A stretch of DNA of 64,000 nt from Thermodesulfobacteriota bacterium (GCA_965232155.1 OZ246948.1:1016434-1080433); one strand, 5' to 3'; shown: positions 3,715 to 20,117, numbered from the stretch's first letter. The notes: generated by a model from the sequence alone, not told the origin. Numbers and translations: made by a program.

Positions 3715-4914
3715 TCAGGCCCCGCCGTTTTCAAACGTTTTCAGTATCCCGTAGGTCGTGTCGCGTTCGGCCGGGATTCTGCCTATTTCTCTGGTGAGTT
3801 TTCTGAACTCCTCGGGCGGGAAGTACTGTCCGTAACTTGCACCGGCGAAACGGGATATCTGCTCTTCCATCAGCGTTCCCCCGAAATCGTTTGCCCCGGC
3901 GGTGAGAGAGAACTGGGCGAACTCGGGTCCCTGCTTTACCCAGGAGACCTGTATGTTGTTTATCCATCCCCGAAGCATCATTCGGGAGACCGCGTACATT
4001 TTCAGCTGGTCAAGATCGGTCGGGCCCTTTCTCACCTTCCCCTTGGAGTGAATAAAGAGCCTCGTGTTCCAGGGAATGAACCGAAGCGGAACGAACTCAG
4101 TGAACCCTCCAGTCTCTTTCTGTATGTCCCTCAGGATTCCAAGGTGTATGGCCCAGTGATGGCGCTTGTCCAGGTGACCGTACATTATGGTCGAAGTGGT
4201 TCTCATTCCCTCCCTGTGGGCTTTTTTAACCACCCTTATCCATACCTCGGTCGGTATCTTCCTGGGAGCGATTACCTTTCTTACTTCTTCAACCAGAACC
4301 TCGGCCGCGGTGCCTGGGAAGGTGTTGTGACCGACATCCTTGAGTCTTCTTATGAATTCCTCTTCCTCTATGCCGAGAGTCTTGGCGCCGTAGTAGATCT
4401 CGTAGGGGGAGAAAGCGTGGGTATGCATCTCGGGCACGGCTTTTTTAACCGTCTTTATAAGTTCGATGTAGAAATTGCCGTCTATCTCGGGATGCATGCC
4501 TCCCTGCATGCATACTTCCGTCGCGCCTATCTCCCAGGCTTCAACGGTTCTCTCCGCGACTTCGTCCATCGAGAGGAAATACGCTCTCTCGTCGCCCTCG
4601 TCCGCCATAAAATTGCAGAAGCCGCAGTAGACATCGCATATGTTGGTGAAGTTTATGTTTCTGTTAACGACGTAGGTAACCACATCCCCGACATCTTCCT
4701 TTCTTATCTGATCGGCCGCGAGAGCCAGGGCGGATATCTCGTCTGTATCCTCTATGCTGAAAAGATGGATTCCGTCCTCAACCGAGATCTCTTTTCCCGA
4801 AAGCGCGTCCTCGATTATGCGGCCCGTTGTGCCGTTTATACGCGACATCACCCCGTCGACACCGAGGGGCCTTCTCTGCTCTATGGACTCTATTATTTTG
4901 TTTATGTCTTCCAT
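3715..4914 (-). CDS. cofH: Radical SAM enzyme, CofH-like (FO synthase subunit 2); MqnC/MqnE not excluded
   Basis: NINFTNICDVYCGFCNF radical-SAM motif and C-terminal TAGANDFGGT. It lies 3 nt downstream of a CofG-like gene, the same domain order as FbiC. Confidence 0.55.
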   Translation of the reverse strand: MEDINKIIESIEQRRPLGVDGVMSRINGTTGRIIEDALSGKEISVEDGIHLFSIEDTDEISALALAADQIRKEDVGDVVTYVVNRNINFTNICDVYCGFCNFMADEGDERAYFLSMDEVAERTVEAWEIGATEVCMQGGMHPEIDGNFYIELIKTVKKAVPEMHTHAFSPYEIYYGAKTLGIEEEEFIRRLKDVGHNTFPGTAAEVLVEEVRKVIAPRKIPTEVWIRVVKKAHREGMRTTSTIMYGHLDKRHHWAIHLGILRDIQKETGGFTEFVPLRFIPWNTRLFIHSKGKVRKGPTDLDQLKMYAVSRMMLRGWINNIQVSWVKQGPEFAQFSLTAGANDFGGTLMEEQISRFAGASYGQYFPPEEFRKLTREIGRIPAERDTTYGILKTFENGGA

Positions 4915-4916
4915 TT

Positions 4917-6176
4917 TCAGTTTACGGGAACGTATCCTCTCTCATCAACGCGTTCTCTTACCTTGCCGAGAACATAGGGGTCTATCCACCGCTCGTCTAT
5001 GTACTCGGGATATACGGGAAGCCTTTCCCGAAGCTCATAACCCAGTGCGCTTACCTCCCTTTCCATTCTCTCAACCTGAGGCCAAGGGGCCTCGGGGTTC
5101 ACATAGTCTATCGTGAGAGGCGACACGCCGCCCAGGTCGTTTACGCCGGCCGTCAGGTAAAAAGTGAAATTCCTGTTGTTAAGGTTAGGGGGTATCTGTA
5201 TGTTCATTTCCCCTCCGAATATTAGCCTCGAGATGGCTACGATCTTCAGCATCTCGAGAAAATCGGCGGGAGGGTACTCCTCCATCTTTATTCCTTCCTT
5301 GGGGTTGAAGTTCTGGATTATTATTTCCTGCAGGTGACCGTACCCGCGGGAGAGTTCAAGCAGGGCGTAAAGCGAGTCCACTCTCTCCTCGAACGTTTCC
5401 CCGATTCCCACCAGTATGCCGCTTGTCCAGGGGATACTGAGATCTCCTGCGTGCTCCATTGTCTCCATCCTGAGCTTCGGGACCTTGTCGGCGCAGCCGT
5501 GATGGGCGTTTCCCCGCTTAAGCAGCCTCTCGCTTATATTCTCTAGCATGAGACCCATGCTGGGGTTGCTTTTTCTGAACCCGGAGAGTTCTTCCGGTGT
5601 TGAGAGCCCGAGGTTCGTGTGGGGGAAGATTCCGTGCTCAAGCCCTGTTTTTCCCATGTCAATCAGGTACTCCGCCGTCGTTTCGTAACCGATTTCCCCG
5701 AGCGCGTCCCTGTATACCTGGTAGGCGAGTTCCGGCTTGTCGCCCGTGACGAAAAGAAGTTCCGTACATCCCGCTTCCGCTCCTTTTTTCGCCATGTCGA
5801 CGACCTCTTCCGGAGTCATGAACAGCTCTCCCTCTCCCGGCTCTATCTTGAACGTGCAGTACCCGCAGCGGTCCCTGCAGAGCTGGGTCAGGGGTACGAA
5901 AACGTTTTTGGAATAAGTTACGGTCTTTCCCTTCGAGCGGTTCCTGATGGCCGATGCGGCTAGAAGAAGAAAAGGGATTTCCCTTGGAAAAAGCTCCGCG
6001 AGGTAAAGTGCGTCTTCACGCGTAATGCTTTCTCCCTCTATCGCTTTTGATATTATTTTTTCAAGCTTTGGGGAGGGACTAAGCTCCGAGAAGTCTCCTG
6101 CGCCGAACGTTTCAAGCAGCATGGCGCTTTCGCTTATGCCGAATGTTTTTTCCCAAGTCTCAGATAAAAGGCCCAT
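4917..6176 (-). CDS. cofG: Radical SAM enzyme, CofG-like (FO synthase subunit 1)
   Basis: TYSKNVFVPLTQLCRDRCGYCTF carries the CxxxCxYC motif typical of CofG and the FbiC N-terminal half; TAGVNDLGG near the C-terminus. Confidence 0.6.
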   Translation of the reverse strand: MGLLSETWEKTFGISESAMLLETFGAGDFSELSPSPKLEKIISKAIEGESITREDALYLAELFPREIPFLLLAASAIRNRSKGKTVTYSKNVFVPLTQLCRDRCGYCTFKIEPGEGELFMTPEEVVDMAKKGAEAGCTELLFVTGDKPELAYQVYRDALGEIGYETTAEYLIDMGKTGLEHGIFPHTNLGLSTPEELSGFRKSNPSMGLMLENISERLLKRGNAHHGCADKVPKLRMETMEHAGDLSIPWTSGILVGIGETFEERVDSLYALLELSRGYGHLQEIIIQNFNPKEGIKMEEYPPADFLEMLKIVAISRLIFGGEMNIQIPPNLNNRNFTFYLTAGVNDLGGVSPLTIDYVNPEAPWPQVERMEREVSALGYELRERLPVYPEYIDERWIDPYVLGKVRERVDERGYVPVN

Positions 6177-6354: not shown

Positions 6355-7356
6355 ATGGTTTCTCTTAATTCAGGCGGACTGTCGGGTACGCCGATTCCGC
6401 CGCGTCGGAAAAATATCCGCACGCGGGAGCGCACACGTCTGCGGCACTTCTCCCCAATTTTTTGCGGTCCCTGGCGCATCGCAACGGGCTTTTTCCTTCT
6501 TGCCGCCATCATACTCGGCGCGCAGCTGGGACCGGCCCGCGCACAGACCGACTCGGAATCGGCCACCTACACAGTAACATTTGAAGGTAACTGGAACACC
6601 GACAGCACGCCCGGCGGGGTTGTGGGCGGTGCCCATTTCACGACGCTGATCGGCGCCGTACACAACAGCGATGCGACCTTCTGGGCAGCGGGCGAGATGG
6701 CCACCGCTGGCGTGGAAAGGGTGGCGGAACTTGGCATCACGGGCGCGTTCGAGACAGAAATCAGCAATGCCGAAGAAGGAACTGTAAAATCCCTCGTCAA
6801 GCAAAGCGGCACCTCCTCCACGGGTACGAGGACATTTGAAGTCGAATTCAGCCGTACTCATCCCCTGCTTACGCTTCTGTCGATGATCGGTCCCAGCCCG
6901 GACTGGTTCGTAGGCGTCTCCGGTCTGTCTCTACTGGACAGATCGGATGCCTGGCTGCTCTCTCACACAGTAGAACTGTTTTCCTACGACGCCGGAACCG
7001 AGAACGGGGAAGAATTTTCGCTGAGCAATCCACCCACAAGTCCCCAGGAAACCATCATCAGTCTCAAGGGACAGGGCAAGTTCTCCGACACACCCATGGC
7101 AAGGTTGAGCTTCACTCTCAACGCAGAGCCTTTAACGGGGGAGATTGACGGACTGTCGGCGGAAGCCGGGGAGGTGGACGACGGCGGTGGAGGCTGCACT
7201 CTTGGAGGAAGTGATAGCGGCAGTGCGTTCGGGCTGTTTCTTGCAACGTTGGCGCTGCTTCTTGCGGTTTTGCTTAACAGAAATAGGCAGAAGACAAAAC
7301 GCATTGAGATGAGGCGAAGGCATTTTTCTGAGAACGGCTTAAGAGAAACGGAGTAA
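6355..7356 (+). CDS. Secreted Spondin_N-domain protein with a C-terminal Gly-rich/Cys, TM helix, basic-tail sorting signal (GlyGly-CTERM-like or MYXO-CTERM-like)
   Basis: Signal-peptide-like GFFLLAAIILGAQLGPARA. TYTVTFEGNW and PSPDWFVG are the spondin-N hallmarks. C-terminus is GGGGCTLGGSDSGSAFGLFLATLALLLAVLLNRNRQKTKR. The true start is uncertain because no ATG lies immediately before the signal peptide. Confidence 0.5.
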   Translation: MVSLNSGGLSGTPIPPRRKNIRTRERTRLRHFSPIFCGPWRIATGFFLLAAIILGAQLGPARAQTDSESATYTVTFEGNWNTDSTPGGVVGGAHFTTLIGAVHNSDATFWAAGEMATAGVERVAELGITGAFETEISNAEEGTVKSLVKQSGTSSTGTRTFEVEFSRTHPLLTLLSMIGPSPDWFVGVSGLSLLDRSDAWLLSHTVELFSYDAGTENGEEFSLSNPPTSPQETIISLKGQGKFSDTPMARLSFTLNAEPLTGEIDGLSAEAGEVDDGGGGCTLGGSDSGSAFGLFLATLALLLAVLLNRNRQKTKRIEMRRRHFSENGLRETE

Positions 7357-7503: not shown

Positions 7504-9453
<1,950 letters not shown>

Positions 9454-10521: not shown

Positions 10522-11126
10522 GCAGATTTATCACGTTCGAGGGAATAGACGGAAGCGGCAAATCAACCCAGGCGAGACTTCTGGCCGATTACCTTTCCAG
10601 TAAGGGAATCAAGGTGTTTCTCACAAAGGAACCGGGCGAGGGTAAACTCGGCGAGGCGATAAGAACCGAGATTCTCGACCGGAGGGATATCGATATTGAG
10701 CCCTACGCCGAACTCTGTCTTTTCTGCGCGGACAGGGCCCAGCACGTAAGGGAGCTCATACTGCCCAAGCTAAAAGACGGTTACACGGTTATCTGCGACA
10801 GGTACTACGATTCGACCCTTGCTTACCAGGGTTCGGGAAGGGAGCTTGATCCTGACCTGGTTTTCCGCATGGCCATGGCTTCGAGCCTTGGCGTTGAGCC
10901 CGACGTCACTTTTTTTCTTTCGATACCGGTTGAGCAGGCGCTTTTGAGGCTCAAGGACCGCGACAAAGAAAGAAACAAGATGGACGAGGAACCGTTTGAG
11001 TTCCACAGCAGGGTGGATGAGGGCTACAGACAACTGATTGAAAAAGGGATCCCAAGGATCAAGGTAATAGAAGCTTCCGGTTCACTCGAGGAAACCCAAA
11101 TGGAGATACGACGCTTTTTTGAGTGA
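10518..11126 (+). CDS. tmk: Thymidylate kinase
   Basis: MSRFITFEGIDGSGKSTQ P-loop and DRY motif. GTG start overlaps the upstream stop (GTGA). Confidence 0.9.
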   Translation: MSRFITFEGIDGSGKSTQARLLADYLSSKGIKVFLTKEPGEGKLGEAIRTEILDRRDIDIEPYAELCLFCADRAQHVRELILPKLKDGYTVICDRYYDSTLAYQGSGRELDPDLVFRMAMASSLGVEPDVTFFLSIPVEQALLRLKDRDKERNKMDEEPFEFHSRVDEGYRQLIEKGIPRIKVIEASGSLEETQMEIRRFFE

Positions 11127-11621
11127 TCACGCGTCCTGGACCGAATCTTTTGTCCTCTCGACTAACTGCTCCACTCTGGGATACATGTAGATATGCAGGA
11201 TGATTCCTATTACCGAGAAAGGAATCATATCTTGGGGATTTTTGCTCAGAAACGCGAGCACAAATCCAAGCAGCACAACGGTCTCGTTTATTCCCCAGGG
11301 AACCACGTGCGGGAGCAGTAGACGGTTTGAGAGTTCCTCAATCCTTTTTTCCGGTTCCTGACCCTGCGTTGAGAGAAATTTCTTGCGAAGAGATTTCTCA
11401 GAAAGGGTAAACCTGTATATAAGAAGGGAAATTACTCCAAGTGCCGCCCCTCCCAGAAGAAATACCGCCTTTACGTTTTCTGCGACATCCGGCGCCTCGG
11501 GCGATTTGAAAATAAAAACCACCGCGGCGTAGGCGAGCATGGCAAGCAGCAGGGCGAACCAGACTATTTTCAGAGCGCTCTGGTTCTTTGCGACTGATGA
11601 GACGCGGTTTTTGCTTTCCAT
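11127..11621 (-). CDS. Hypothetical integral membrane protein (4 predicted TM helices)
   Basis: 164-aa ORF with hydrophobic segments; no recognisable family. Confidence 0.4.
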   Translation of the reverse strand: MESKNRVSSVAKNQSALKIVWFALLLAMLAYAAVVFIFKSPEAPDVAENVKAVFLLGGAALGVISLLIYRFTLSEKSLRKKFLSTQGQEPEKRIEELSNRLLLPHVVPWGINETVVLLGFVLAFLSKNPQDMIPFSVIGIILHIYMYPRVEQLVERTKDSVQDA

Positions 11622-11650
11622 GACTCTGGGTGGGGGGCGAGATTGTGCGC

Positions 11651-11860
11651 TCAGGATGTGATCTTGGCGAAAACCACGCTCAGGATTATAAGAGCGACCA
11701 GGATTCCCATCATGTAAAAAGGCACGCTTGGGTTATATCCCTTTTCTATGTTCGGAACCCTTTTCTGGGACCAGATTATTGGGGCCGCTTCGTTTTCATC
11801 CGGCGCCTCGGTTTCCTGCTCCGCCATTTCTTCTGTTTTCTGCTCTTCGGTCTCCGCCAT
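11651..11860 (-). CDS. Small acidic protein with a C-terminal TM helix (hypothetical)
   Basis: MAETEEQKTEEMAEQETEAPDE...MMGILVALIILSVVFAKITS. The antisense plus-strand ORF 11630..11875 was judged less likely. Confidence 0.3.
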   Translation of the reverse strand: MAETEEQKTEEMAEQETEAPDENEAAPIIWSQKRVPNIEKGYNPSVPFYMMGILVALIILSVVFAKITS

Positions 11861-12002
11861 TTTAAGGTTTCCTAGGACTGAGCGTACGAAGAAATTATCA
11901 CGCAACCCTCCCCGAAAATCAAGTTTCCCATAGGGCCGGCGACCCTTGGGTTTCCTTGAAAACCCGGTCCCGTGTATTTATACTTACCCCAACATTGTAA
12001 AA

Positions 12003-12022
12003 GGCCGCGAAGTTCCGCGGCC
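12003..12022 (+). promoter_or_regulatory. Perfect 7-bp stem hairpin (GGCCGCG-aagttc-CGCGGCC) immediately upstream of the rhodanese ribosome-binding site
   Basis: Read directly from the sequence; no T-tract follows, so it is not a terminator. Sits in the divergent promoter region. Confidence 0.3.
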
Positions 12023-12039
12023 GGACGGAGGTTTTAGAG

Positions 12040-12882
12040 ATGGCGGATTACGCAAATCCCGATGTTTTGGTGAGCACGGACTGGGTAGAGGAGCATATAG
12101 ACGACCCTGATATCGTTATAGTGGAATCGGATGAGGATATATTGCTTTACGAAATAGGACACATAAGAAATTCGGTGAAATTCGACTGGCAGACCGAACT
12201 TCAGGATCAACTTGTAAGGGACTACGTGAGCAGGGAGAACTTCGAGGCGCTGCTTTCGGAAAAGGGAATTTCAAACGACCACGCGGTGGTCTTCTACGGG
12301 GACAGAAGCAACTGGTGGGCCTGCTACGCGTTCTGGACCTTCAAGGTTCTGGGGCATGAGAAATGCCTCATAATGGACGGCGGAAGGCAGAAATGGGTCG
12401 ACGAGGGAAGAGATATGGTAAAAGATGTTCCCGAGAGGGCCAAAACGAACTACAAAGTGTCGGCGGTCGATGAGTCAATAAGGGCCTTTCGCGACGACGT
12501 GCTGGAGCACATGGGCTCGGGCAGACCACTTGTGGACGTCCGTTCCCCGAAAGAGTATTCTGGAGAACTTCTTCACATGGAGGCTTATCCCCAGGAAGGC
12601 GCGCTTCGCGGAGGACATATTCCGGGTGCGGTAAACGTTCCCTGGGCTACGGCGGCGAACGAGGACGGAACTTTCCGCTCGGCCGATGAACTTGTCGAGA
12701 TATACGAAAAGGGACAGGGGCTTAGCAAGGATCAGGACGTGATCGCCTACTGCAGGATAGGGGAGCGCTCTTCTCACACATGGTTTGTCCTTACCTATCT
12801 TCTCGGGTTTGAGAATGTCAGAAATTACGACGGTTCGTGGACCGAGTGGGGGAACCTTGTAAGGGCTCCGATAGAAAAATAA
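12040..12882 (+). CDS. sseA: Tandem-rhodanese sulfurtransferase (thiosulfate/3-mercaptopyruvate sulfurtransferase family)
   Basis: Two rhodanese domains with active-site loop CRIGERSS in the second; typical [17 protein letters not shown]-terminus. Confidence 0.8.
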
Positions 12883-12912
12883 AAGGAGAAACGTTTTTGC
12901 GTGAATGAGAAA

Positions 12913-12951
12913 GGATGTGGTCTTAAGGGTCCGCATCCTTTTTTTTTTGAA
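12913..12951 (+). terminator. Rho-independent terminator after the rhodanese gene
   Basis: GGATGTGGTC-ttaagg-GTCCGCATCC stem followed by T10. Confidence 0.55.
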
Positions 12952-12962
12952 ATCGCGGGAAA

Positions 12963-13388
12963 ATGGCCAGCATAGAGGAAATAGTAGAGGAATTCCAGGT
13001 GGCGGACCGTCAGGGGATGATTGACCTGCTCAAGGACTACTCCGAGGAGCTGCCGGAGGTTCCCGAAAGGGTTCTCAGCCTGATGGACAGGGACGCCAAC
13101 CGTGTGCACGAGTGCGAAACCCCCGTTTTCATCTGGGTTGAGAGGGAAAACGGTGCCGTAATGATATTCGCCGACGTGCCGGGACCGTATCCGACCGTCA
13201 GGGGGCTTGTTTCGATTCTCGTAACCGCGTTTTCCGGCCTGAGCCCCGAGGAGATAGAGTCAGCTCCCCCTGATTTCATTTCCCAACTCGGACTTGCGCA
13301 GTTGCTCGGAACCAGGAGGATGTGGGGGATTTCCGCCGTCTACTCGAGAATAAAGAGCGAGGTGGGGAAAACGAAGGAGGCGCCATGA
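12963..13388 (+). CDS. sufE: SufE-family sulfur acceptor protein
   Basis: VHECETPVFIWVE aligns with SufE active-site region QGCQSQVWIV. The downstream blocks (RGLVSILVTAF...SPEEI; LGLAQLLGTRRMWGISAVYSRI) follow the SufE pattern. Confidence 0.7.
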   Translation: MASIEEIVEEFQVADRQGMIDLLKDYSEELPEVPERVLSLMDRDANRVHECETPVFIWVERENGAVMIFADVPGPYPTVRGLVSILVTAFSGLSPEEIESAPPDFISQLGLAQLLGTRRMWGISAVYSRIKSEVGKTKEAP

Positions 13389-13774
13389 TAGAAGAGCAGA
13401 GAATGAAGATGATCATGGATCACTACGAAAATCCGAGAAACTTCGGTCCGCTTGAGAACCCGACGGTGACGCTTAGAGGTGGCAACCCGAATTGCGGAGA
13501 CACGCTGAATATCTATATTCGCACAGCCGATGGGGGAGTCATAGAAGATATAAGTTTTGACGGGGAAGGCTGCACGATAAGCCAGGCCGCGGCTTCCCTT
13601 CTTACGGAGTTTATAAAGGGAAAGACTGTGGAGCGGCTCAGAGAGCTCGACTCTGACTACCTCAAGGAACTTCTTGGCAAGGACATCATGGTAACTCGCC
13701 CGAAATGCAGCCGCCTCGCCCTTGAAACCCTCAAATCATGGGCAAGGGATTTCGAGAGGGGAAAAACCGCCTGA
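13385..13774 (+). CDS. sufU: SufU/IscU-type Fe-S cluster scaffold / sulfur-transfer protein (NifU N-terminal domain)
   Basis: NPNCGD, GEGCTISQAAAS and PKCSRLALE three-Cys pattern. AGGAGG ribosome-binding site; 4-bp overlap with sufE. Confidence 0.75.
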   Translation: MIEEQRMKMIMDHYENPRNFGPLENPTVTLRGGNPNCGDTLNIYIRTADGGVIEDISFDGEGCTISQAAASLLTEFIKGKTVERLRELDSDYLKELLGKDIMVTRPKCSRLALETLKSWARDFERGKTA

Positions 13775-13826
13775 TTTTTGGTATACTTCTCTTTATTACT
13801 CAACCAGATTCAAGGAGATTCAAACG

Positions 13827-15161
13827 ATGAAAAACGGCAAACTCGATAAAACGGTTCTAAGCGAAAGGATTGAAGAAGCGCTTAAATACCCGCTTTTTGA
13901 TTCCATATTCAACAGGCGCTCAAGAAGATTCGGTCTTGGAATGGAGCTTAAGGACAGCACCCTTGAGTTCAAGTCGAACTACGATCCCGTGCCTCTCACA
14001 GAGATGGAGGAAGCGCTTCTGGTGTGGGCCGGAACGGGGCTCACCGGGCTTTGCCTCGCTGACCTGCCGCCAGAGAACGGGATAGACCTTCTATGCCAGT
14101 GGACGGGAAGAACCTGGCCTTCTGCGTGCAATAACCACGGGACTGAGCTTTTTTTCACAAATGATAACGGTCTTTACCACGTGGACGTAAAGAACATGCT
14201 TCCCAAGGAACATGAGATCGATCTGTTTTTCAAGCTCTCCCGCGAGGAGAAAATCGCGAGGGTTCTGGAACTCTACAGGGAAAGCATTAACAAGCTTGAG
14301 GACGGAAGGGCCGACATGCCCGACAAGATGCCGGGACTTTTTGAGTTTAACCAGTGGAATACAAACAAGCCCGGCACCACGCTTTTTGTTCCGGTGACGG
14401 ACGTCACCGAGGAGTACCTGAATCTTCTTACCCTTTACTGCAGCCACAGCTACGGATTCACGATCATAGACGATCTTACCGGAAAGCCCGCGGGCGTTGA
14501 GAAATGGGTGGAGACAGGCAGGCTCAAGGGCGATATAAAGCTTTCTCTATTCGATCTCGAGGTAAGAATTCTTACGGGACTTAACGTTGAGCAGGCGTTT
14601 ATCACGCAGAACATGGCCCTTGCTCTCCAGCCCCTGGGGCTTGCGGGATGGGCGTTTACGGGCTTCATACCGAGGTTCGCCATGGGAGCCGCTCCGAATC
14701 TGTTCAAGGGTCTCGGATTCCGTTTCGTTCAGCCGAAAAAAGGTACGATCGATCCTCCCACCACCGTTCCCGTAGGAAAGGACGGGGTTTTTGAAGCTTA
14801 CTGTCCACCCTACTATGAGAACATGGATGATGCGATTGATCACTTCTTGGCCCATAAATGGAGAGCGTGGGAATCCGACAAGCCTTTCCCGTACACGGAA
14901 CCCGACAGGCATCTCATGAAGGCCCCGAGGCCCACGGATACCACCATAGAGATTGTAAGGGCTGTCGCTAACTATATTTATGACACTTACGGCAGATTCC
15001 CAGCGTTTGTGGATCCCATGTACATGAGGCTAGTTTTTCAGGCGATGCACATAGACGTGGATTTCTATGACCAGTATTACCCGAAGGGTTCCTATTCGGA
15101 CAGGCATCTGCAAGCTTTTCTCGAGAACAATCCGGACCAGAGAGAGCGGTTTAAAGAGTAG
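13827..15161 (+). CDS. Enlarged nitroreductase-superfamily protein (444 aa), function unknown
   Basis: N-terminal FNRRSRRFG (RRSxRxF nitroreductase signature) and C-terminal ITQNMALALQPLGLAGWAFTGF (QNxxLAxxxLGLG), with about 250 extra residues between. Ribosome-binding site AAGGAG 8 nt upstream of the ATG at 13827. Confidence 0.5.
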   Translation: MKNGKLDKTVLSERIEEALKYPLFDSIFNRRSRRFGLGMELKDSTLEFKSNYDPVPLTEMEEALLVWAGTGLTGLCLADLPPENGIDLLCQWTGRTWPSACNNHGTELFFTNDNGLYHVDVKNMLPKEHEIDLFFKLSREEKIARVLELYRESINKLEDGRADMPDKMPGLFEFNQWNTNKPGTTLFVPVTDVTEEYLNLLTLYCSHSYGFTIIDDLTGKPAGVEKWVETGRLKGDIKLSLFDLEVRILTGLNVEQAFITQNMALALQPLGLAGWAFTGFIPRFAMGAAPNLFKGLGFRFVQPKKGTIDPPTTVPVGKDGVFEAYCPPYYENMDDAIDHFLAHKWRAWESDKPFPYTEPDRHLMKAPRPTDTTIEIVRAVANYIYDTYGRFPAFVDPMYMRLVFQAMHIDVDFYDQYYPKGSYSDRHLQAFLENNPDQRERFKE

Positions 15162-15217
15162 CGCCTGCCCTGTGAGTAGAGTTTGACCCGGTTTGCGGTA
15201 GGGGGAGAGAATCAGGC

Positions 15218-16550
15218 ATGCGCGTAGCTATCATCGGAAATGGGGTAACGGGGGTTGCGGCCGCCCTGAGTATACGCAGGCTCCAGCCCGACTGGGAGAT
15301 CATCATGATCTCGGGGGAGTCCTCTTTTCACTATTCCCGCCCGGCGCTCATGTACATATTCATGGGCCACATGAGCTACAAGGACACCAAGCCTTACGAG
15401 GACAGTTTCTGGAGGAAAAACCGCATTGATTTGGTAAGGGGATGGGTTACAGAAATTGATGCCGCCGGGAAAAAGCTCATTATGCACGAAAAAGATCCCG
15501 TTTCGTTCGATAAGCTGCTTGTCGCCACGGGATCCAAGTCAAACAAGTTCGGTTGGCCCGGCCAGGGTCTTGGAGGAGTACAGGGCTTCTACAGCCTTAT
15601 GGATCTCAGGCTTCTTTACGAGAACGTAAAAGGAGCCCGAAGTCGTCGGAGGTGGCCTGATCGGGATCGAGCTTGCTGAATGCTCCATTAAAAGGAGCCC
15701 GAAGCGCCGTTATCGTCGGAGGTGGCCTGATCGGGATCGAGCTTGCTGAGATGCTCCATTCGCGCAATATCCACGTCACACTGGTGAGAGAAGAGTCCTA
15801 CTGGATAACGTCCTTCCGATTGAGGAATCACGGATGATAAACCGCGTGATTCTGGAGCAGGGGATTGATCTCAGGCTCTTAACGGAGCTAAAGGAGATAG
15901 TAGGGGACGATTCGGGGAGAGTGCGGGGAGTCGTAACCAGCAAGGAGGAATTCATAGAATGCCAGATCGTCGGTCTTACCGCGGGAGTAAGTCCCAACAT
16001 AGCTCTTGCCAAGGCAAGCGGGATAAAGACAGGGAGGGGGATTCTGGTTGACCGCAGCTTCAGGACCGATACCCCGGATGTGTTTGCCGCCGGGGACTGC
16101 GCCGAGATAATCACTGAGGGGGATGGAAGGAACCTTATTCAGCAGGTCTGGTACACCGGCAAGAACCAGGGAAAAGTGGCTGGAGAGGCGATAGCCGGCC
16201 GACACAGCGTGTATGACCCCGGAATCTGGTATAACTCGGCTAAATTCTTCGATCTTGAGTACCAGACTTACGGTAACGTGAGAAACGTTCCTGCCCAGGG
16301 GGAGGACAGTTTTTACTGGGAGCATCCCGATCACAGCCGTTCAGTAAGAATCGTTACGAAAGACGGAGCCGTCTGCGGCATAAACGTCATGGGTCTTCGC
16401 TACAGCCACAGGGTTTGCGAGAGCTGGGTGGCGGAGAAAAGGCCCCTTGACTATGTGCTCGATCATCTGGGGGATGCCAATTTCGATCCGGAATTCTATG
16501 AAGAATGTGAAGCGGAAATAATAAGGGAGATAAGGAAACAGGCCGCCTGA
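15218..16550 (+). pseudogene. NAD(P)H-dependent FAD oxidoreductase of the pyridine-nucleotide-disulfide family (ferredoxin/rubredoxin-reductase or NirB-N-like), disrupted
   Basis: N-terminus MRVAIIGNGVTGVAAA...YSRPALMY (no redox-active Cys), second Rossmann RSAVIVGGGLIGIELAEML, C-terminal GDCAEI. The reading frame is broken by an imperfect 62/71-nt tandem duplication (15628-15760) and a 1-nt deletion near 15804 (GG vs GGG). Confidence 0.6.
15628..15760 (+). repeat. Imperfect tandem duplication (62 nt plus 71 nt) inside the flavoprotein gene
   Basis: Copy 1 is aaaaggagcccgaagTcgtcgg...gctgaAtgctccatt. Copy 2 carries an extra CGCCGTTAT and an extra G. Deleting copy 1 restores ...ENVKGARSAVIVGGGLIGIELAEMLHSRNIHVTLVREESYW. 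Confidence 0.8.
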
Positions 16551-17944
16551 TGGAACAAAATATTACAGGCTACGATTTTGACGAAGAAGCCCTTGGTTTT
16601 GAGGAACCGGAGAAGGCCCCGGACAAGCCGCTTGGAACCGGAGAAAGACTTTCTCTTGCCGTTTTGGGCTTCGGAATACTAATGTTTGCCCTTCAGTCCA
16701 TGGGTATGCCTCCGGGCGGCACGTGGGCCGGATTTCTTCTGGTATTTCTTCCTGTTTGCTTCGGTACGGCGTTTTACTTCTACCTTAATTTTAAGAGCAC
16801 CGTTCCGGGAATAAAACATGACAACATCTACTTCAGGGGAATAACCAACAAGGGGATTCTCGGCTGGCTTGTCGGCATTGTGTTCACCGGTTTCTACATA
16901 GCTCTCTACTGGTTTCCCGAATATCTGGCGGGGGGAATAAAGATCGTAAACCCCCTTTCTCAGGCCCTTTCAGGTTCTCCGGCCAACAACTGGTTTTTCT
17001 ACGGTTTTCTCTACACAGTGGCCGTTTTCGTTTTCGGCGCGAGAATGTTCATGAAATACAGGCATAACCGCTACCAGCAGATAAGAACGGCCTCCGTGAT
17101 GTTTTTCCAGCTCGGGTTCGCGTTTCTCATTCCCAACATCCTCAGGCTCTTTAACCAGCCCGAGTTCTACCTGAGCTATTTCTGGCCGCTCAAGCCCGAG
17201 TACCTGTTCCCCGGCACGTTCAGCTATTTAGTGAACCACCCCGGCGGTCTCGGAATGTTCCTTGTTTTCTGGGGAGCCGTGATGACCTTCATCGCCACTC
17301 CGCTTCTTACCTACTATTTCGGCAAGAGATGGTACTGCTCCTGGGTGTGCGGCTGCGGAGGGCTTGCTGAAACCATGGGAGACCCTTGGAGGCAGCTTTC
17401 CGACAAATCGAAAAAGGCATGGAGGATAGAGCGCTGGATCGTGCATTCCGTGCTGGTGTTTATCGTCGTTACGACGGTTCTTCTCTGGGTTAACTCCACA
17501 ACCTCGGGGGCGGTGTTCGGAGAAGCCTCGATGTCTCTTAAAAAATGGTATGGATTCTACATAGGGGCCATTTTTTCTGGAGTCATAGGAGTTGGTTTCT
17601 ATCCCATAATGGGAAGCAGGGTGTGGTGTCGGTTCGGTTGCCCTATGGCGGCTATTCTAGGGATTTTCCAGAGGTATCTTTCGAGATTCAGGATTACAAC
17701 AAACGGCGACCAGTGCATGTCATGCGGCAACTGTTCCACTTACTGCGAGATGGGCATAGATGTCAGGGCTTACGCTCAGAAGGGCGAGAACATAGTGAGA
17801 GCGTCGTGCGTTGGATGCGGGGTGTGCTCGGCCGTGTGTCCCAGGGGGGTGCTTAAGCTTGAAAACGGGGGAACTTTCAAGGACAGGTTCTCGGGGGCGG
17901 ACAAGCCGCTTGGGGCACTTATCGATTCACTTAGACATGTCTAG
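16550..17944 (+). CDS. Membrane polyferredoxin of the NapH/MauN/CcoG(FixG)-like family
   Basis: Multiple TM helices carrying WYCSWVCGCGG and RVWCRFGCPMAAILG (CxxxC-P motifs as in NapH/CcoG). C-terminal 2x[4Fe-4S] domain CMSCGNCSTYCEMG...CVGCGVCSAVCPRG. Confidence 0.65.
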   Translation: MEQNITGYDFDEEALGFEEPEKAPDKPLGTGERLSLAVLGFGILMFALQSMGMPPGGTWAGFLLVFLPVCFGTAFYFYLNFKSTVPGIKHDNIYFRGITNKGILGWLVGIVFTGFYIALYWFPEYLAGGIKIVNPLSQALSGSPANNWFFYGFLYTVAVFVFGARMFMKYRHNRYQQIRTASVMFFQLGFAFLIPNILRLFNQPEFYLSYFWPLKPEYLFPGTFSYLVNHPGGLGMFLVFWGAVMTFIATPLLTYYFGKRWYCSWVCGCGGLAETMGDPWRQLSDKSKKAWRIERWIVHSVLVFIVVTTVLLWVNSTTSGAVFGEASMSLKKWYGFYIGAIFSGVIGVGFYPIMGSRVWCRFGCPMAAILGIFQRYLSRFRITTNGDQCMSCGNCSTYCEMGIDVRAYAQKGENIVRASCVGCGVCSAVCPRGVLKLENGGTFKDRFSGADKPLGALIDSLRHV

Positions 17945-18005
17945 CTTCGGCGCCCGAAGTCTTTATTTTCCGATCCTTAAAATGCCCGACACAACAGCTA
18001 AGCGC

Positions 18006-18458
18006 TCAGATATTGAGAAACTTGACGGATTCCAGACTTTCCTTTTTCCCGCGGTCGGCTCTTTCGATTATCTCGCCGCTTTCTATGTCAAATATGAAGC
18101 AGGATATACCGGAAAGTATTTCCATGTTAAACTCCAGAAAGTTGTTGACGTATAGCTTGGAGTCTTCAACAATTTCCTTTTTGTCGGCTTTCTCCGGTTT
18201 TCTTACTAAAATAAAATACGCGCACAGAAAATCCGGAAGATCCGGGTTGTGGGCAAATACCGCTTTTGAATCGTATTTCAGGATTACATTATTGTTGAAA
18301 TAGCGCTGGTATCCAGCAATTAGCGGCTGATTCAGATGAGACAGCGCGTAAACTATTGCGCAGGCGATTTTGCTCTGGTTCTCAATCATGAAATCAAGCG
18401 CTTCCTTGTTGAACCGCTCGAGTGTTTTTTCCGCTTCCTCTTTTCTTCGTGGTGACAT
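18006..18458 (-). CDS. Hypothetical protein (150 aa) in a locally AT-rich segment
   Basis: ORF only; no recognisable motif. Confidence 0.35.
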   Translation of the reverse strand: MSPRRKEEAEKTLERFNKEALDFMIENQSKIACAIVYALSHLNQPLIAGYQRYFNNNVILKYDSKAVFAHNPDLPDFLCAYFILVRKPEKADKKEIVEDSKLYVNNFLEFNMEILSGISCFIFDIESGEIIERADRGKKESLESVKFLNI

Positions 18459-18560
18459 TTTATCCTCCTTGAGAAGTTCCCTTCGCCGGTTTTCCCCTTT
18501 AAGTGGTGGTGCTAATATACCATAAACCTTAAAGCGGGGGTGGAAGTGCCGTTGCGTTCT

Positions 18561-20117
18561 CTATGAAGCATACGCCGTTGCCCTGCTTTCCCTTATGACC
18601 ATGATTTTTATCTGGCCCGGATAAACGACCTCTTTTTCTATCTTCTTGGCTATCTCATGCGAAAGGATAGCTCCCTCCTCGTCGCTTACTTGGTCGCTTT
18701 CCACTATCACCCTTACCTCTCTTCCCGCCTGGATCGCATAACATCTCTCAACGCCGGGAAAAGAGCTGGCGACGCCTTCTATGCTCTCGATTCTTTTCAC
18801 GTAGTTCTCATACGTTTCCCTCCGGGCGCCTGGGCGGGCGGCGGAAATGGCGTCGGCCGCCTGTACGAGAAGCGGCAGGATTCCTTGGGGCTGAGGGTCA
18901 TGGGTTTTTTCAAGCGCGTCAATGATTTCGGGGGGTTCGCCGTATTTTTTGACGATGTTTGTCCCTATATCCACATGCGAGCCTTCAACCTCGTGGTCGA
19001 CCGCTTTTCCTATGTCGTGGAGTAGTCCGGCTCTTTTGGCGAGTTTCTCGTTGTAACCGATTTCGGAAGCAAGCATTCCGCAGATGAACCCCACCTCAAT
19101 TGAGTGATTGAGTATGTTCTGCGAATAGCTAGTTCTGTACTTAAGCATCCCAAGATTGTTTATCAGTTCCGGATGCATACCGCTTATGCCGAGATCAAAA
19201 AGCGCCTGTTCCCCTTCTTTCTGTATTTCCCTTTCTATTTCCTTTTCAACCTCGGTTACCACTTCTTCGATTCTTGCCGGATGAATTCTCCCGTCCGCTA
19301 TCAGACGCTCAAGCGAGATTTTCGCCACTTCCCGCCTGATGGGATTAAAGCACGAGATCACAACCGTCTCGGGCGTGTCGTCGATAATTATGTCCACCCC
19401 GGTACGAAGCTCTATGGAGCGGATGTTGCGTCCTTCTCGCCCGATAATTCTTCCCTTCACGTCGTCGCTCGGAAGATTGACGACCGACACCGTTTTCTCG
19501 CTCGTGTAGCTTCCGGAATATCTCTGGATGGCAAGGGATATTATGTCCTTCGCCTTCCGCTCGGCCGATGAATTGCACTCTTCCTCTATATGCTTGAGTC
19601 TTTTCGCCGCCTCGTGTCTTGCCTCGTTCTCAACCAGGCTTACGAGTTCGGCCTTCGCCGCCTCGCGGGTAAAACCTGATACCTCTTCTATTTTCCCCTT
19701 TATCTCTTCGATGTTCTCATCAAGAGCTCTCTGCTTTTCCTCGAGAGTCAGGTTCTTGCTCTCCAGTTCCGCCTGCGCTTTCTCAAGTTCCGTATTCTTC
19801 CTGTCAATCTCCTCGTGTTCTTTGCCAAGTTTCTCTTCCCTTGCCTTTAGCTTTTTTTCAGTAGCGGAGAATTCCTTGCGCTTTTCGCTTGACATTCTCT
19901 GCATCTGAGAGTTTTTATCCTTAACGAGTTTTTTCGCCCTGTTATCCGCTCTGTTTTTTATCTCTTCCGCCTGTTTCTCCGCTTTTCGGATTATGCCCTG
20001 TGCCTGCTCTTGGCTTTTGGTGATTCTGTTTTTCTCCATGATCATTCTGTAGATGAAATGGGCGGCGAATCCAAGTCCGAAGAGCAGCAAAAGCAGTAAT
20101 ATTGATTGTGCTTGCAT
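18561..20117 (-). CDS. rny: Ribonuclease Y
   Basis: N-terminal TM helix, long coiled coil, KH domain (GRIIGREGRNIRSIE) and HD domain (LLHDIGKAVDHE). Confidence 0.9.
   Translation of the reverse strand: MQAQSILLLLLLFGLGFAAHFIYRMIMEKNRITKSQEQAQGIIRKAEKQAEEIKNRADNRAKKLVKDKNSQMQRMSSEKRKEFSATEKKLKAREEKLGKEHEEIDRKNTELEKAQAELESKNLTLEEKQRALDENIEEIKGKIEEVSGFTREAAKAELVSLVENEARHEAAKRLKHIEEECNSSAERKAKDIISLAIQRYSGSYTSEKTVSVVNLPSDDVKGRIIGREGRNIRSIELRTGVDIIIDDTPETVVISCFNPIRREVAKISLERLIADGRIHPARIEEVVTEVEKEIEREIQKEGEQALFDLGISGMHPELINNLGMLKYRTSYSQNILNHSIEVGFICGMLASEIGYNEKLAKRAGLLHDIGKAVDHEVEGSHVDIGTNIVKKYGEPPEIIDALEKTHDPQPQGILPLLVQAADAISAARPGARRETYENYVKRIESIEGVASSFPGVERCYAIQAGREVRVIVESDQVSDEEGAILSHEIAKKIEKEVVYPGQIKIMVIRESRATAYAS

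What the first reader, a model, noticed from the sequence alone, without database searches (positions are those of the whole stretch)
13827..15161. Doubled-size nitroreductase-fold protein of unknown function
The protein starts with the nitroreductase N-terminal signature (FNRRSRRF) and ends with the conserved QNxxLAxxxLGLG-type dimer-interface/FMN region. It contains about 250 additional residues (Cys-containing: CLADL, CQWTGRTWPSACNNHG, YCSHSYG, YCPPYY), for 444 aa against about 200 for classical nitroreductases. This resembles the enlarged SagB/ThcOx-type or two-lobed nitroreductase-like architectures, but no YcaO/cyclodehydratase partner is present. It is translationally coupled to SufE/SufU.
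Basis: partly seen in the sequence, partly recalled or inferred. Interest (0 to 1): 0.55.

Follow-up and report, generated by a model that had tools for sequence, protein, structure and literature searches.

The report
Oversized, unannotated nitroreductase-fold flavoprotein family
This gene encodes a real, strongly conserved 444-residue protein with one nitroreductase-type flavin-binding core plus large non-duplicated extensions; it belongs to a big family that no database names, and its function is unknown but looks linked to redox or peroxide stress.

Summary

It is not a doubled or two-lobed NTR and not SagB-like. Only 140-183 residues align, even to two-lobed proteins. Profile self-comparison shows no repeat. 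The 126-residue C-terminal extension is all-helical with no fold match. No YcaO is nearby. The cysteines are not conserved across the family. The gene lies 52 nt downstream of SufU, so it is not translationally coupled.

The family is large (about 1,700 clusters at 50% identity, at least 505 species) and always labelled "hypothetical". The rhodanese-SufE-SufU and flavoprotein-polyferredoxin neighbours hold only in some Dadabacteria. Other branches sit beside a PerR-like regulator, ECF sigma/anti-sigma pairs, di-haem peroxidases and animal-type haem peroxidases.

Best reading: a homodimeric FMN oxidoreductase used in oxidative or redox stress. The substrate is unknown. It is a new variant of a known kind, of moderate interest.

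The parts
13827..15161 (+). Gene for the 444-aa divergent nitroreductase-superfamily protein ('X')
13812..13817 (+). Shine-Dalgarno AAGGAG, 9 nt before the ATG
   Evidence: Sequence. Conserved with the ATG in orthologues L010, L024, L030 and L033 while the spacer diverges.
13914..13931 (+). RRSRRF (residues 30-35), the NTR-type RxSxR flavin-phosphate motif
   Evidence: Invariant in A1. R31 in 54/57, S32 in 43/57, R34 in 56/57 across the family. The role in FMN binding is inferred from known NTRs (my knowledge).
14037..14117 (+). Conserved insertion GLTG...GRTW (residues 71-97) before the PS loop; low model confidence
   Evidence: G71 in 54/57, G74 in 56/57, G94/R95/T96 in 48-51 of 57. pLDDT about 40 for residues 73-103.
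14118..14156 (+). PSACNNHGTELFF (residues 98-110), equivalent to the NTR 'PS..N.QPW.F' loop and first core strand
   Evidence: Family profile aligns this region to 3hoi and 8cqs. Strand 106-111 in the model.
14607..14651 (+). QNMALALQPLGLAGW (residues 261-275): end of the long core helix and the next strand
   Evidence: This is the region that aligns to FRP, NfsA, NfrA1 and AlbA and gives the PF00881 sub-threshold hits. G271 invariant; N262 in 53/57 and G273 in 53/57 (the window protein has Ala at 273).
14781..15158 (+). C-terminal extension (residues 319-444) with conserved CPPY, YGRFP, QA(H)H.D, FYD motifs
12040..12882 (+). Two-domain rhodanese (CRIGERS active-site loop), first gene of the co-directional cluster
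   Evidence: PF00581 E = 2.7e-35. Present upstream of X in 39/80 Dadabacteria species.
12963..13388 (+). SufE/CsdE-like sulfur acceptor
   Evidence: PF02657 E = 4e-22.
13385..13774 (+). SufU/IscU-like protein; its ATG overlaps the SufE stop (ATGA)
   Evidence: PF01592 E = 7.9e-27. TIGR01994 SufU 91 bits against a cut-off of 92.5. Coordinates.
15218..16550 (+). Pyridine-nucleotide-disulfide-family flavoprotein, split into two ORFs here
   Evidence: PF07992 on both halves. Intact at 424 aa in L010, where the best matches are NorW, ferredoxin-NAD reductase and CoA-disulfide reductase, all below cut-off. Downstream of X in 32/80 species.
15627..15758 (+). Imperfect tandem duplication (62-nt extra block) that frameshifts the flavoprotein gene at its second GxGxxG region
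   Evidence: the extra block is absent from L010 and L016.
16550..17944 (+). NapH-like membrane polyferredoxin, about 7 predicted TM segments, 2x[4Fe-4S] motifs
   Evidence: Fer4 families and TIGR02163 NapH/MauN, 3.2e-15, sub-threshold. TM prediction.
11956..11984 (+). Best sigma-70-like site (10/12) ahead of the rhodanese gene
   Evidence: A consensus match only.
17944..17960 (+). Terminator-like hairpin with T-rich tail directly after the polyferredoxin gene
   Evidence: The scan lists no terminator-like site in either intergenic gap flanking X; it does list one inside the X coding sequence (14768-14787, +).

Best explanation
X is a cytoplasmic, highly divergent member of the nitroreductase (NTR) flavoenzyme superfamily. 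It has a single NTR alpha+beta core. The core elements are the N-terminal RRSRRF flavin-phosphate motif, the PS loop, and the long helix plus strand QN..L..GLxGW. The core is enlarged by conserved insertions (about residues 71-97, 120-184, 205-240 and 278-313) and an all-helical 126-residue C-terminal extension. It is not a duplicated lobe.

By analogy with every characterised NTR, it most likely forms a homodimer with two FMN at the interface and carries out hydride-type two-electron redox chemistry. The donor would be NAD(P)H, or possibly a reduced deazaflavin.

In this genome it is the fourth gene of a co-directional six-gene cluster: rhodanese, SufE, SufU, X, an NAD(P)H flavoprotein (broken here), and a NapH-like membrane polyferredoxin. 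Elsewhere the family sits next to a PerR-like repressor, ECF sigma/anti-sigma pairs, rubrerythrin, OsmC and haem peroxidases.

I therefore read it as a stress-responsive reductase serving peroxide or oxidative-damage metabolism. In this locus it plausibly supplies or dissipates reducing equivalents for a sulfur-relay/Fe-S module.

Shown computationally: the fold, homology to NTRs, absence of duplication, conservation, and gene contexts. Inferred: FMN binding, the dimer, the electron donor, and the stress role. Unknown: the substrate.

For: Sequence: family profile against PDB gives FRP 2.8e-5, NfsA-type 2.3e-4, NfrA1 1.1e-3, NfsA 4.7e-3, and all 15 best hits are NTRs. 25/57 relatives hit PF00881 and no other family recurs.

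Motifs conserved family-wide: R31, R34, G271, G273, N262.

Single lobe.

Real and selected: 1846 homologues; 1728 clusters at 50% identity; 505 confirmed genomic stretches.

Operon-like layout: 52-nt and 56-nt gaps flank X. The scan reports no terminator-like site in either gap, though it does list one inside the X coding sequence. The best promoter-like site precedes the rhodanese gene and a terminator-like hairpin follows the polyferredoxin gene.

Synteny: rhodanese + SufU upstream in 39/80 species, including a 70%-identity marine clade with different downstream genes. Flavoprotein + polyferredoxin downstream in 32/80 species, including a clade with different upstream genes.

Stress theme:
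- A PerR-like regulator and X form a two-gene unit in the same slot in distinct loci L002, L091 and L092. In L006-L009 the slot also holds rubrerythrin, a luciferase-like oxidoreductase, CCP_MauG, OsmC and a flavin-reductase-like protein.
- An RskA-type anti-sigma factor lies within three genes upstream in 17 species, directly upstream in 11, and an ECF sigma factor is present in 13.
- In the soil branch, a di-haem cytochrome c peroxidase sits at +1 in 16 of 80 loci. A membrane domain, either alone or fused to an animal haem peroxidase, is among the four nearest genes on either side in 38 of 80, mostly at +1 or +2.
- One natural fusion joins MPAB_Lcp_cat to X.
Against: - The protein alone matches no Pfam, NCBIfam or PDB sequence model, so FMN binding is not demonstrated.
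- The second phosphate-binding K/R of NfsA/FRP does not align to a conserved position in the profile alignment.
- The most conserved insertion (residues 73-103) is modelled with low confidence.
- Contexts are heterogeneous. 36 of 80 orthologue loci carry neither the Suf nor the flavoprotein/polyferredoxin neighbours. Other loci show aldehyde dehydrogenase, acyl-CoA ligase, SSF symporter, DUF2148, a TPP enzyme or a metallo-beta-lactamase-fold protein. A single physiological role for the family is therefore doubtful.
- Synteny among closely related Dadabacteria is weak evidence of function.
- NTRs are poor one-electron donors (my knowledge), which fits badly with feeding haem or Fe-S partners.
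- No expression or biochemical data exist, and no paper was found.
Confidence: 0.55

Rival explanations
1. X is an NAD(P)H:flavin reductase of the FRP/NfsA type. It hands reduced free flavin to partner enzymes, namely two-component monooxygenases, or uses it to reduce Fe(III) for Fe-S assembly. This is a more specific version of the main reading.
For: The best PDB sequence-profile hits are V. harveyi FRP and NfsA-type flavin reductases. An HpaB-like oxygenase component is directly downstream in 4 and nearby in 6 orthologue loci. A luciferase-like (LLM) oxidoreductase is directly upstream in L006-L009. SufE/SufU and a ferritin/rubrerythrin protein are neighbours.
Confidence: 0.15
2. X is a sulfur-relay enzyme. 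It reduces or processes persulfide, polysulfide or thiosulfate-derived sulfane sulfur passed along rhodanese, SufE and SufU. Electrons come from the adjacent NAD(P)H flavoprotein and membrane polyferredoxin.
For: The six-gene co-directional cluster has short gaps. Rhodanese + SufU-like genes are immediately upstream of X in two separated Dadabacteria clades, at >=90% and about 70% identity.
Against: The link is lost in 41 of 80 orthologue loci. In 83-85% identity orthologues it is interrupted by oppositely oriented genes. It is absent from all other branches of the family examined. The cysteines of X are not conserved, so a persulfide-carrying role for X itself is unlikely.
Confidence: 0.12
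3. X is a deazaflavin (FO/F420)-linked NTR-fold enzyme, comparable to the FbiB C-terminal domain or stand-alone dehydro-F420 reductases, rather than an NAD(P)H enzyme.
Against: No cofC/D/E genes are adjacent. The FbiB domain is not among the best structural hits. The family also occurs in Thermoanaerobacter, which I do not recall as F420-positive. FO synthase next to a photolyase is explained by the photolyase antenna alone.
Confidence: 0.06
4. X is a SagB/McbC/ThcOx/BmdC-type azoline dehydrogenase working on a RiPP or NRPS product.
Against: NCBIfam gives no hit of any kind at E <= 0.1. No YcaO, cyclodehydratase or NRPS lies within about 8 kb in the window, and none was among the called or recurring annotated neighbours in the roughly 175 related loci. 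Only 168-181 residues align.
Confidence: 0.03
5. X is a two-lobed pseudo-dimeric NTR, like Acg or Ava_2154 (3eo7), made by internal duplication.
Confidence: 0.03

Closest known systems
Minimal 'hub'-type nitroreductases (BT_0217 8cqs, Reut_A1228 3hj9, BF3017 3hoi, Dde_0787 3e39)
   Different: They are 170-220 aa and are mostly uncharacterised themselves. X has about 250 more residues in conserved insertions and a helical tail. Identity is 13-16%. Pfam recognises them but not X.
NfsA / FRP / NfrA1 NADPH-flavin oxidoreductases
   Same: These are the best sequence-profile hits (E 2.8e-5 to 5e-3) over the long helix and GLGG strand. The FRP alignment runs on into its C-terminal extension. They share an N-terminal (H/R)RSxR motif. 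I recall that some members are induced by oxidative stress.
SagB/McbC/ThcOx/BmdC azoline oxidases
   Different: No cyclodehydratase, YcaO or NRPS partner. No NCBIfam hit of any kind. The added parts do not superpose, with only 168-181 residues aligned.
Acg (2ymv) and Ava_2154 (3eo7), which I recall as two-lobed NTR-like proteins
   Same: Enlarged NTR-fold proteins of unknown or regulatory function.
   Different: I recall that they gain size through a second NTR-like lobe. X does not.
General NTR-superfamily architecture: core plus E1-E3 extensions (Akiva et al., as summarised in PMC8668982)
   Same: X follows the same principle: an FMN-binding core with extensions radiating from defined positions, thought to set substrate specificity.
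   Different: The extensions of X are much larger than in the more than 14 described subgroups and include a 126-residue helical tail. The family is not captured by PF00881, so I infer it was probably not part of that classification (not checked).

Membership tests
Nitroreductase (NTR) flavoenzyme superfamily | Alpha+beta NTR fold | tested here: met
Nitroreductase (NTR) flavoenzyme superfamily | Sequence-profile membership (Pfam PF00881 at gathering score 23.5 bits) | tested here: not met
   X has no PF00881 hit even at E <= 1. 25/57 relatives hit at E <= 1, best 4.7e-6. A family profile reaches PDB NTRs at E = 2.8e-5. Homology is supported, but formal Pfam membership fails.
Nitroreductase (NTR) flavoenzyme superfamily | N-terminal RxSxR flavin-phosphate motif and GLGG strand after the long helix | tested here: met
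   R30-R31-S32-R33-R34-F35 and G271-L-A-G274-W are present. R31 in 54/57, R34 in 56/57, G271 in 57/57, G273 in 53/57.
Nitroreductase (NTR) flavoenzyme superfamily | FMN bound at a homodimer interface | not testable with these tools
   Only single-chain, ligand-free prediction is available, and no coordinates are accessible.
SagB/ThcOx/McbC-type azoline dehydrogenase | Match to the SagB-type dehydrogenase domain model (I recall this as TIGR03605) | tested here: not met
   NCBIfam scan of X returns 0 families at E <= 0.1.
SagB/ThcOx/McbC-type azoline dehydrogenase | Adjacent YcaO/cyclodehydratase (or NRPS) and a precursor peptide | tested here: not met
   Genes within about 8 kb of X: CofG, Spondin_N, Acs, pseudouridine synthase, Tmk, one TM protein, rhodanese, SufE, SufU, flavoprotein, polyferredoxin, a 150-aa unknown, RNase Y, MTHFS, RF. 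None was seen among the called or recurring annotated neighbours in related loci.
SagB/ThcOx/McbC-type azoline dehydrogenase | Conserved active-site Lys-Tyr pair (recalled from the literature) | not tested
   This needs a residue-level structural superposition, which the tools do not return.
Two-lobed pseudo-dimeric NTR-like proteins (Acg, Ava_2154) | Two tandem NTR-like lobes in one chain | tested here: not met
NfsA/FRP NADPH-flavin oxidoreductase group | Group-specific C-terminal extension and NADPH/FMN-phosphate K/R residues | tested here: inconclusive
Suf Fe-S assembly system component | Conserved co-occurrence with suf genes across the protein family | tested here: not met
   Rhodanese + SufU-like genes are upstream in 39/80 Dadabacteria species only. 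They are absent from the PerR-linked paralogue, Thermoanaerobacter, L090 and all soil-branch loci examined.

The most novel reading that the evidence does not exclude
The family is the cytoplasmic flavin-reductase module of previously unrecognised peroxide-handling systems. In soil bacteria it is encoded directly beside extracytoplasmic or membrane-anchored haem enzymes. These are a di-haem cytochrome c peroxidase, or an animal-type haem peroxidase fused to a 4-5-TM domain with one invariant His and many conserved Trp. There is also one fusion to an Lcp/MpaB-type oxygenase. X could therefore feed electrons across the membrane to a peroxidase, or reduce the peroxide or oxidised-lipid products. 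In Dadabacteria the same enzyme is placed under PerR-like or ECF-sigma control. In this window it is wired to a rhodanese-SufE-SufU sulfur relay and a membrane polyferredoxin.
Probability: 0.18. Interest if true: 0.7.

Novelty: new variant of a known kind. Interest (0 to 1): 0.5.

Why it matters
The nitroreductase superfamily is heavily studied for prodrug activation, bioremediation, cofactor biosynthesis and dehalogenation. Yet this branch escapes Pfam, NCBIfam and PGAP naming entirely. It comprises about 1,700 clusters at 50% identity. It occurs in Thermodesulfobacteriota (Dadabacteria), Firmicutes, Myxococcota, Acidobacteriota and Chloroflexota. Cultured carriers include Archangium and Vitiosangium.

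It shows that the NTR core can carry extensions that double its size without duplication. Its gene neighbourhoods give concrete, testable leads: a PerR-like repressor, ECF sigma/anti-sigma pairs, three unrelated kinds of haem (per)oxygenase, and a sulfur relay in this window. These point to a new redox or peroxide-stress function.

If the link to peroxidases or to sulfur and Fe-S metabolism holds, the family would add a missing electron-supply or detoxification step to those systems. If not, it remains a well-defined target for a new Pfam family and for structural genomics.

Tried and rejected
- Single-sequence Pfam, NCBIfam and PDB searches found nothing. The PDB profile search with close homologues only (A1) also found nothing. 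The broader A2 profile was needed.
- The exact-sequence contig look-up for X found no record.
- The afdb50 fold library was unavailable, so no full-length structural neighbours from AlphaFold DB could be obtained.
- Internal duplication was rejected.
- The small ORFs just downstream of X homologues in L004 and L006 were tested as a possible conserved partner. They are unrelated.
- The membrane 'Y' domain of the soil branch was searched for in the window and all Dadabacteria loci. It is absent.
- There is no paralogue of X in the window.
- An Rfam scan of 11000-18600 gave only one far-sub-threshold chance hit and no riboswitch.
- Literature searches found no description of this family.
- Cysteine-based metal or persulfide chemistry was considered and set aside, because the cysteines are not conserved.
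- The C-terminal His residues (H430, W434, H435 in the family consensus) are replaced in X itself (A430, N434, N435), so I did not build a metal-site hypothesis on them.

Full report
WHAT IS THERE

The window carries an ORF ending at 15161. The longest version starts at a TTG (13722) inside the preceding gene. The ATG at 13827 has an AAGGAG 9 nt upstream. That Shine-Dalgarno, the ATG and the first codons are conserved in orthologues while the spacer diverges. The 444-aa product is therefore the right one.

Base composition matches the surroundings. The protein has no predicted TM segment. The nearest genomes are Candidatus Dadabacteria / Thermodesulfobacteriota MAGs, and X is 97% identical in L010.

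IS IT A NITROREDUCTASE?

With the protein alone the answer from sequence libraries is no.
- There are no Pfam or NCBIfam hits at E <= 0.1, or even at E <= 1.
- There is no PDB sequence hit.
- A profile built from close homologues also finds nothing.

The family evidence, however, is clear.
- An AlphaFold model built on 31 homologues is confident (pLDDT 81, pTM 0.84).
- A profile of 57 diverse family members (25-47% identical to X) hits V. harveyi FRP at E = 2.8e-5. It then hits NfsA-type proteins, NfrA1, NfsA and AlbA, and all 15 best hits are NTRs.
- 25 of those 57 members give PF00881 hits at E <= 1, and no other family recurs.
QN..L..GLxGW is at residues 261-275. The PS..TELF loop and strand are at residues 98-110. 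RRSRRF at 30-35 is nearly invariant family-wide.

It is detectable only through the family profile and the fold.

ARCHITECTURE

The QN...GLG motif is not at the end; 169 residues follow it. The extra residues, about 250, are distributed across several blocks:
- a conserved but poorly modelled insertion at about residues 71-97 (GxTG...GRT);
- blocks at about 120-184, 205-240 and 278-313;
- a C-terminal extension at 319-444.

This is how the superfamily is described to diversify: a core plus extensions E1-E3 (PMC8668982). Here it is taken much further.

It is not a duplication.
- hhalign between halves and quarters of the family alignment gives probabilities of 7% or less.

Family-wide invariant or near-invariant residues include R31, R34, G71, G74, D113, R161, G183, D215, N262, G271, P327-P328, G389, P392 and Y414. 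That pattern suggests a defined active site rather than a generic scaffold.

HOW BIG AND HOW KNOWN IS THE FAMILY?

- 1846 proteins at E <= 1e-3 in the 90%-clustered collection.
- 1728 clusters at 50% identity, of which 194 are at E <= 1e-30.
- 505 confirmed stretches in one-genome-per-species contigs.
- A second search from a myxobacterial member adds 1482 more-distant proteins from Myxococcota, Acidobacteriota and Chloroflexota.

Every source name is "hypothetical protein", including RefSeq entries from cultured Archangium and Vitiosangium. I found no paper on it.

CONTEXT IN THE WINDOW

X is the fourth of six co-directional genes:
1. rhodanese (12040-12882);
2. SufE (12963-13388);
3. a SufU-like gene (13385-13774), whose ATG overlaps the SufE stop;
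4. X;
5. a pyridine-nucleotide-disulfide-family flavoprotein (15218-16550);
6. a NapH-like membrane polyferredoxin (16550-17944).

The gaps flanking X are 52 and 56 nt. The scan lists no terminator-like site in either gap, though it lists one inside the X coding sequence (14768-14787). The best promoter-like site precedes the rhodanese gene, and a hairpin with a T-rich tail follows the polyferredoxin gene. These are consensus matches only. X is thus probably co-transcribed with its neighbours but is not translationally coupled to them. No YcaO or cyclodehydratase lies within about 8 kb.

HOW CONSERVED IS THAT CONTEXT?

Among 80 Dadabacteria species:
- 27 have both rhodanese + SufU upstream and flavoprotein + polyferredoxin downstream;
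- 12 have only the former, including a marine clade at about 70% identity that has different downstream genes;
- 5 have only the latter, with different upstream genes;
- 36 have neither.

In 83-85% identity orthologues, oppositely oriented genes (an SSF symporter and a ComEA-like gene) separate SufU from X. In 17 species X instead follows an RskA-type anti-sigma factor within three genes, directly in 11, and an ECF sigma factor is present in 13 of them. HU and deformylase genes lie downstream in most of these. The Suf and flavoprotein links are therefore recurrent but not obligatory.

A paralogous clade at 52-54% identity, in genomes with the same local synteny (L002 is from the same genome as the orthologue locus L001), forms a two-gene unit with a Fur-family regulator. 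That regulator scores best against PerR models (141-145 bits, against 92-98 for the best-scoring Fur model, and below the equivalog cut-off). In one lineage the same slot also contains rubrerythrin, a luciferase-like oxidoreductase, a CCP/MauG di-haem peroxidase, OsmC and a flavin-reductase-like protein.

Other contexts differ again.
- Thermoanaerobacter has two DUF2148 proteins, then X, then a truncated X paralogue.
- One metagenomic operon reads aldehyde dehydrogenase, X, X, acyl-CoA ligase, SSF symporter.

In the soil branch, 80 loci were examined.
- 16 have a di-haem cytochrome c peroxidase directly downstream (NF040606, above cut-off).
- 38 have a roughly 200-aa membrane domain among the four nearest genes on either side, mostly at +1 or +2. 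It has 4-5 TM segments, one invariant His and many Trp. It stands alone or is fused to an animal-type haem peroxidase.
- 22 have a TPP enzyme directly upstream.
- 10 have a metallo-beta-lactamase-fold protein directly upstream.
- 22 have a GMC oxidoreductase nearby.

One natural fusion joins an Lcp/MpaB-type oxygenase domain to X.

INTERPRETATION

Shown: X is a single-core, non-duplicated, strongly conserved, deeply divergent NTR-superfamily protein from a large unannotated family.

Inferred from what is established for NTRs: a homodimer with two FMN, carrying out hydride-type two-electron chemistry.

Inferred from context: a role in oxidative or peroxide-related redox stress. The common denominators are PerR-like and ECF control and three unrelated haem (per)oxygenase partners. 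In this locus there is a possible link to a sulfur-relay/Fe-S module and a membrane electron-transfer pair.

I put about 0.85 on the fold and family statement. I put about 0.35-0.4 on the stress-reductase role in general. No specific substrate gets more than about 0.15. Rival readings are listed with their tests:
- flavin reductase for two-component oxygenases or iron reduction;
- a sulfur-relay reductase;
- a deazaflavin-linked enzyme;
- a SagB-type azoline oxidase;
- a two-lobed pseudo-dimer.
The last two are effectively excluded.

VERDICT

Its architectural analogy (SagB/ThcOx or two-lobed), its emphasis on cysteines, the "ends with" description and the translational coupling are wrong. This is a new variant of a known kind. 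Interest is moderate (0.5). It would be higher if the peroxidase or sulfur-relay partnership proves functional.

Noticed in passing
window 15627-15758 (within 15218-16550): The flavoprotein gene downstream of X is split into two ORFs (15218-15679 and 15834-16550). The cause is an imperfect tandem duplication, a 62-nt extra block at the second GxGxxG region. Orthologues L010 and L016 lack the block and encode an intact 424-aa protein. It is either a pseudogene or an assembly or long-read artefact.
   Followed up: partly
window 3715-4914 (-) and 4917-6176 (-): CofH and CofG (FO / deazaflavin synthase) score above NCBIfam cut-offs. In the related genome L003 two radical-SAM genes (one carrying CofH_C, Pfam only) and a photolyase gene directly precede the rhodanese-SufE-SufU genes.
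   Followed up: partly
L002, L091, L092, L093, L006-L009 (gene at 8001-9305 in each): A 52-54% identity paralogue of X forms a conserved unit with a PerR-like Fur-family regulator, between an aldolase gene and efp. In L006-L009 the same slot has also acquired rubrerythrin, an LLM oxidoreductase, CCP_MauG, OsmC and an NAD_binding_1 protein.
   Followed up: partly
L098-L176, e.g. L129:4378-6939, L094:10060-10728, L101:8335-9915: The soil-branch homologues of X sit in two recurrent clusters. One reads GMC oxidoreductase, MBL-fold protein, X, di-haem cytochrome c peroxidase, 200-aa membrane domain, transglutaminase-like protein, metallophosphoesterase. The other reads TPP enzyme, X, membrane domain fused to an animal haem peroxidase, sometimes followed by patatin. 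The membrane domain has no Pfam match, 4-5 TM segments, one invariant His and many conserved Trp.
   Followed up: partly
protein P0185 (863 aa, metagenomic): A natural fusion joins an MPAB_Lcp_cat oxygenase domain (PF09995, 7.9e-27) to a full-length X-family domain (residues 430-858).
   Followed up: no
L004:8402-9358 and L090:1130-3787: There are tandem paralogues. In Thermoanaerobacter, X is followed two genes later by a 318-aa truncated X-like protein (30% identity) that lacks the RRSRRF motif and the C-terminal tail. L090 has two full-length copies side by side.
   Followed up: partly
L042-L077 (e.g. L073:3241-4113, L050:3993-4577): In 17 Dadabacteria species the X orthologue follows an RskA-type anti-sigma factor within three genes, directly in 11, and an ECF sigma factor is present in 13 of them. 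This replaces the Suf genes seen in the window.
   Followed up: partly
L003, L036, L038, L039, L061, L067, L068, L071, L073; L090: An SSF-family sodium:solute symporter lies divergently just upstream of X in two different genomic backgrounds. It also lies in the same operon as X in L090. This adjacency survives rearrangement.
   Followed up: no
window 6355-7356 (+): A bacterial protein with a Spondin_N domain (PF06468, 1.9e-39), a domain best known from animal extracellular matrix proteins.
   Followed up: no
window 805-3654 (-): A 949-aa fusion-type FAD/Fe-S oxidoreductase resembling YdiJ (D-2-hydroxyglutarate dehydrogenase) with a GlpC/GlcF-like C-terminal half. All matches are below the equivalog cut-offs.
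   Followed up: no
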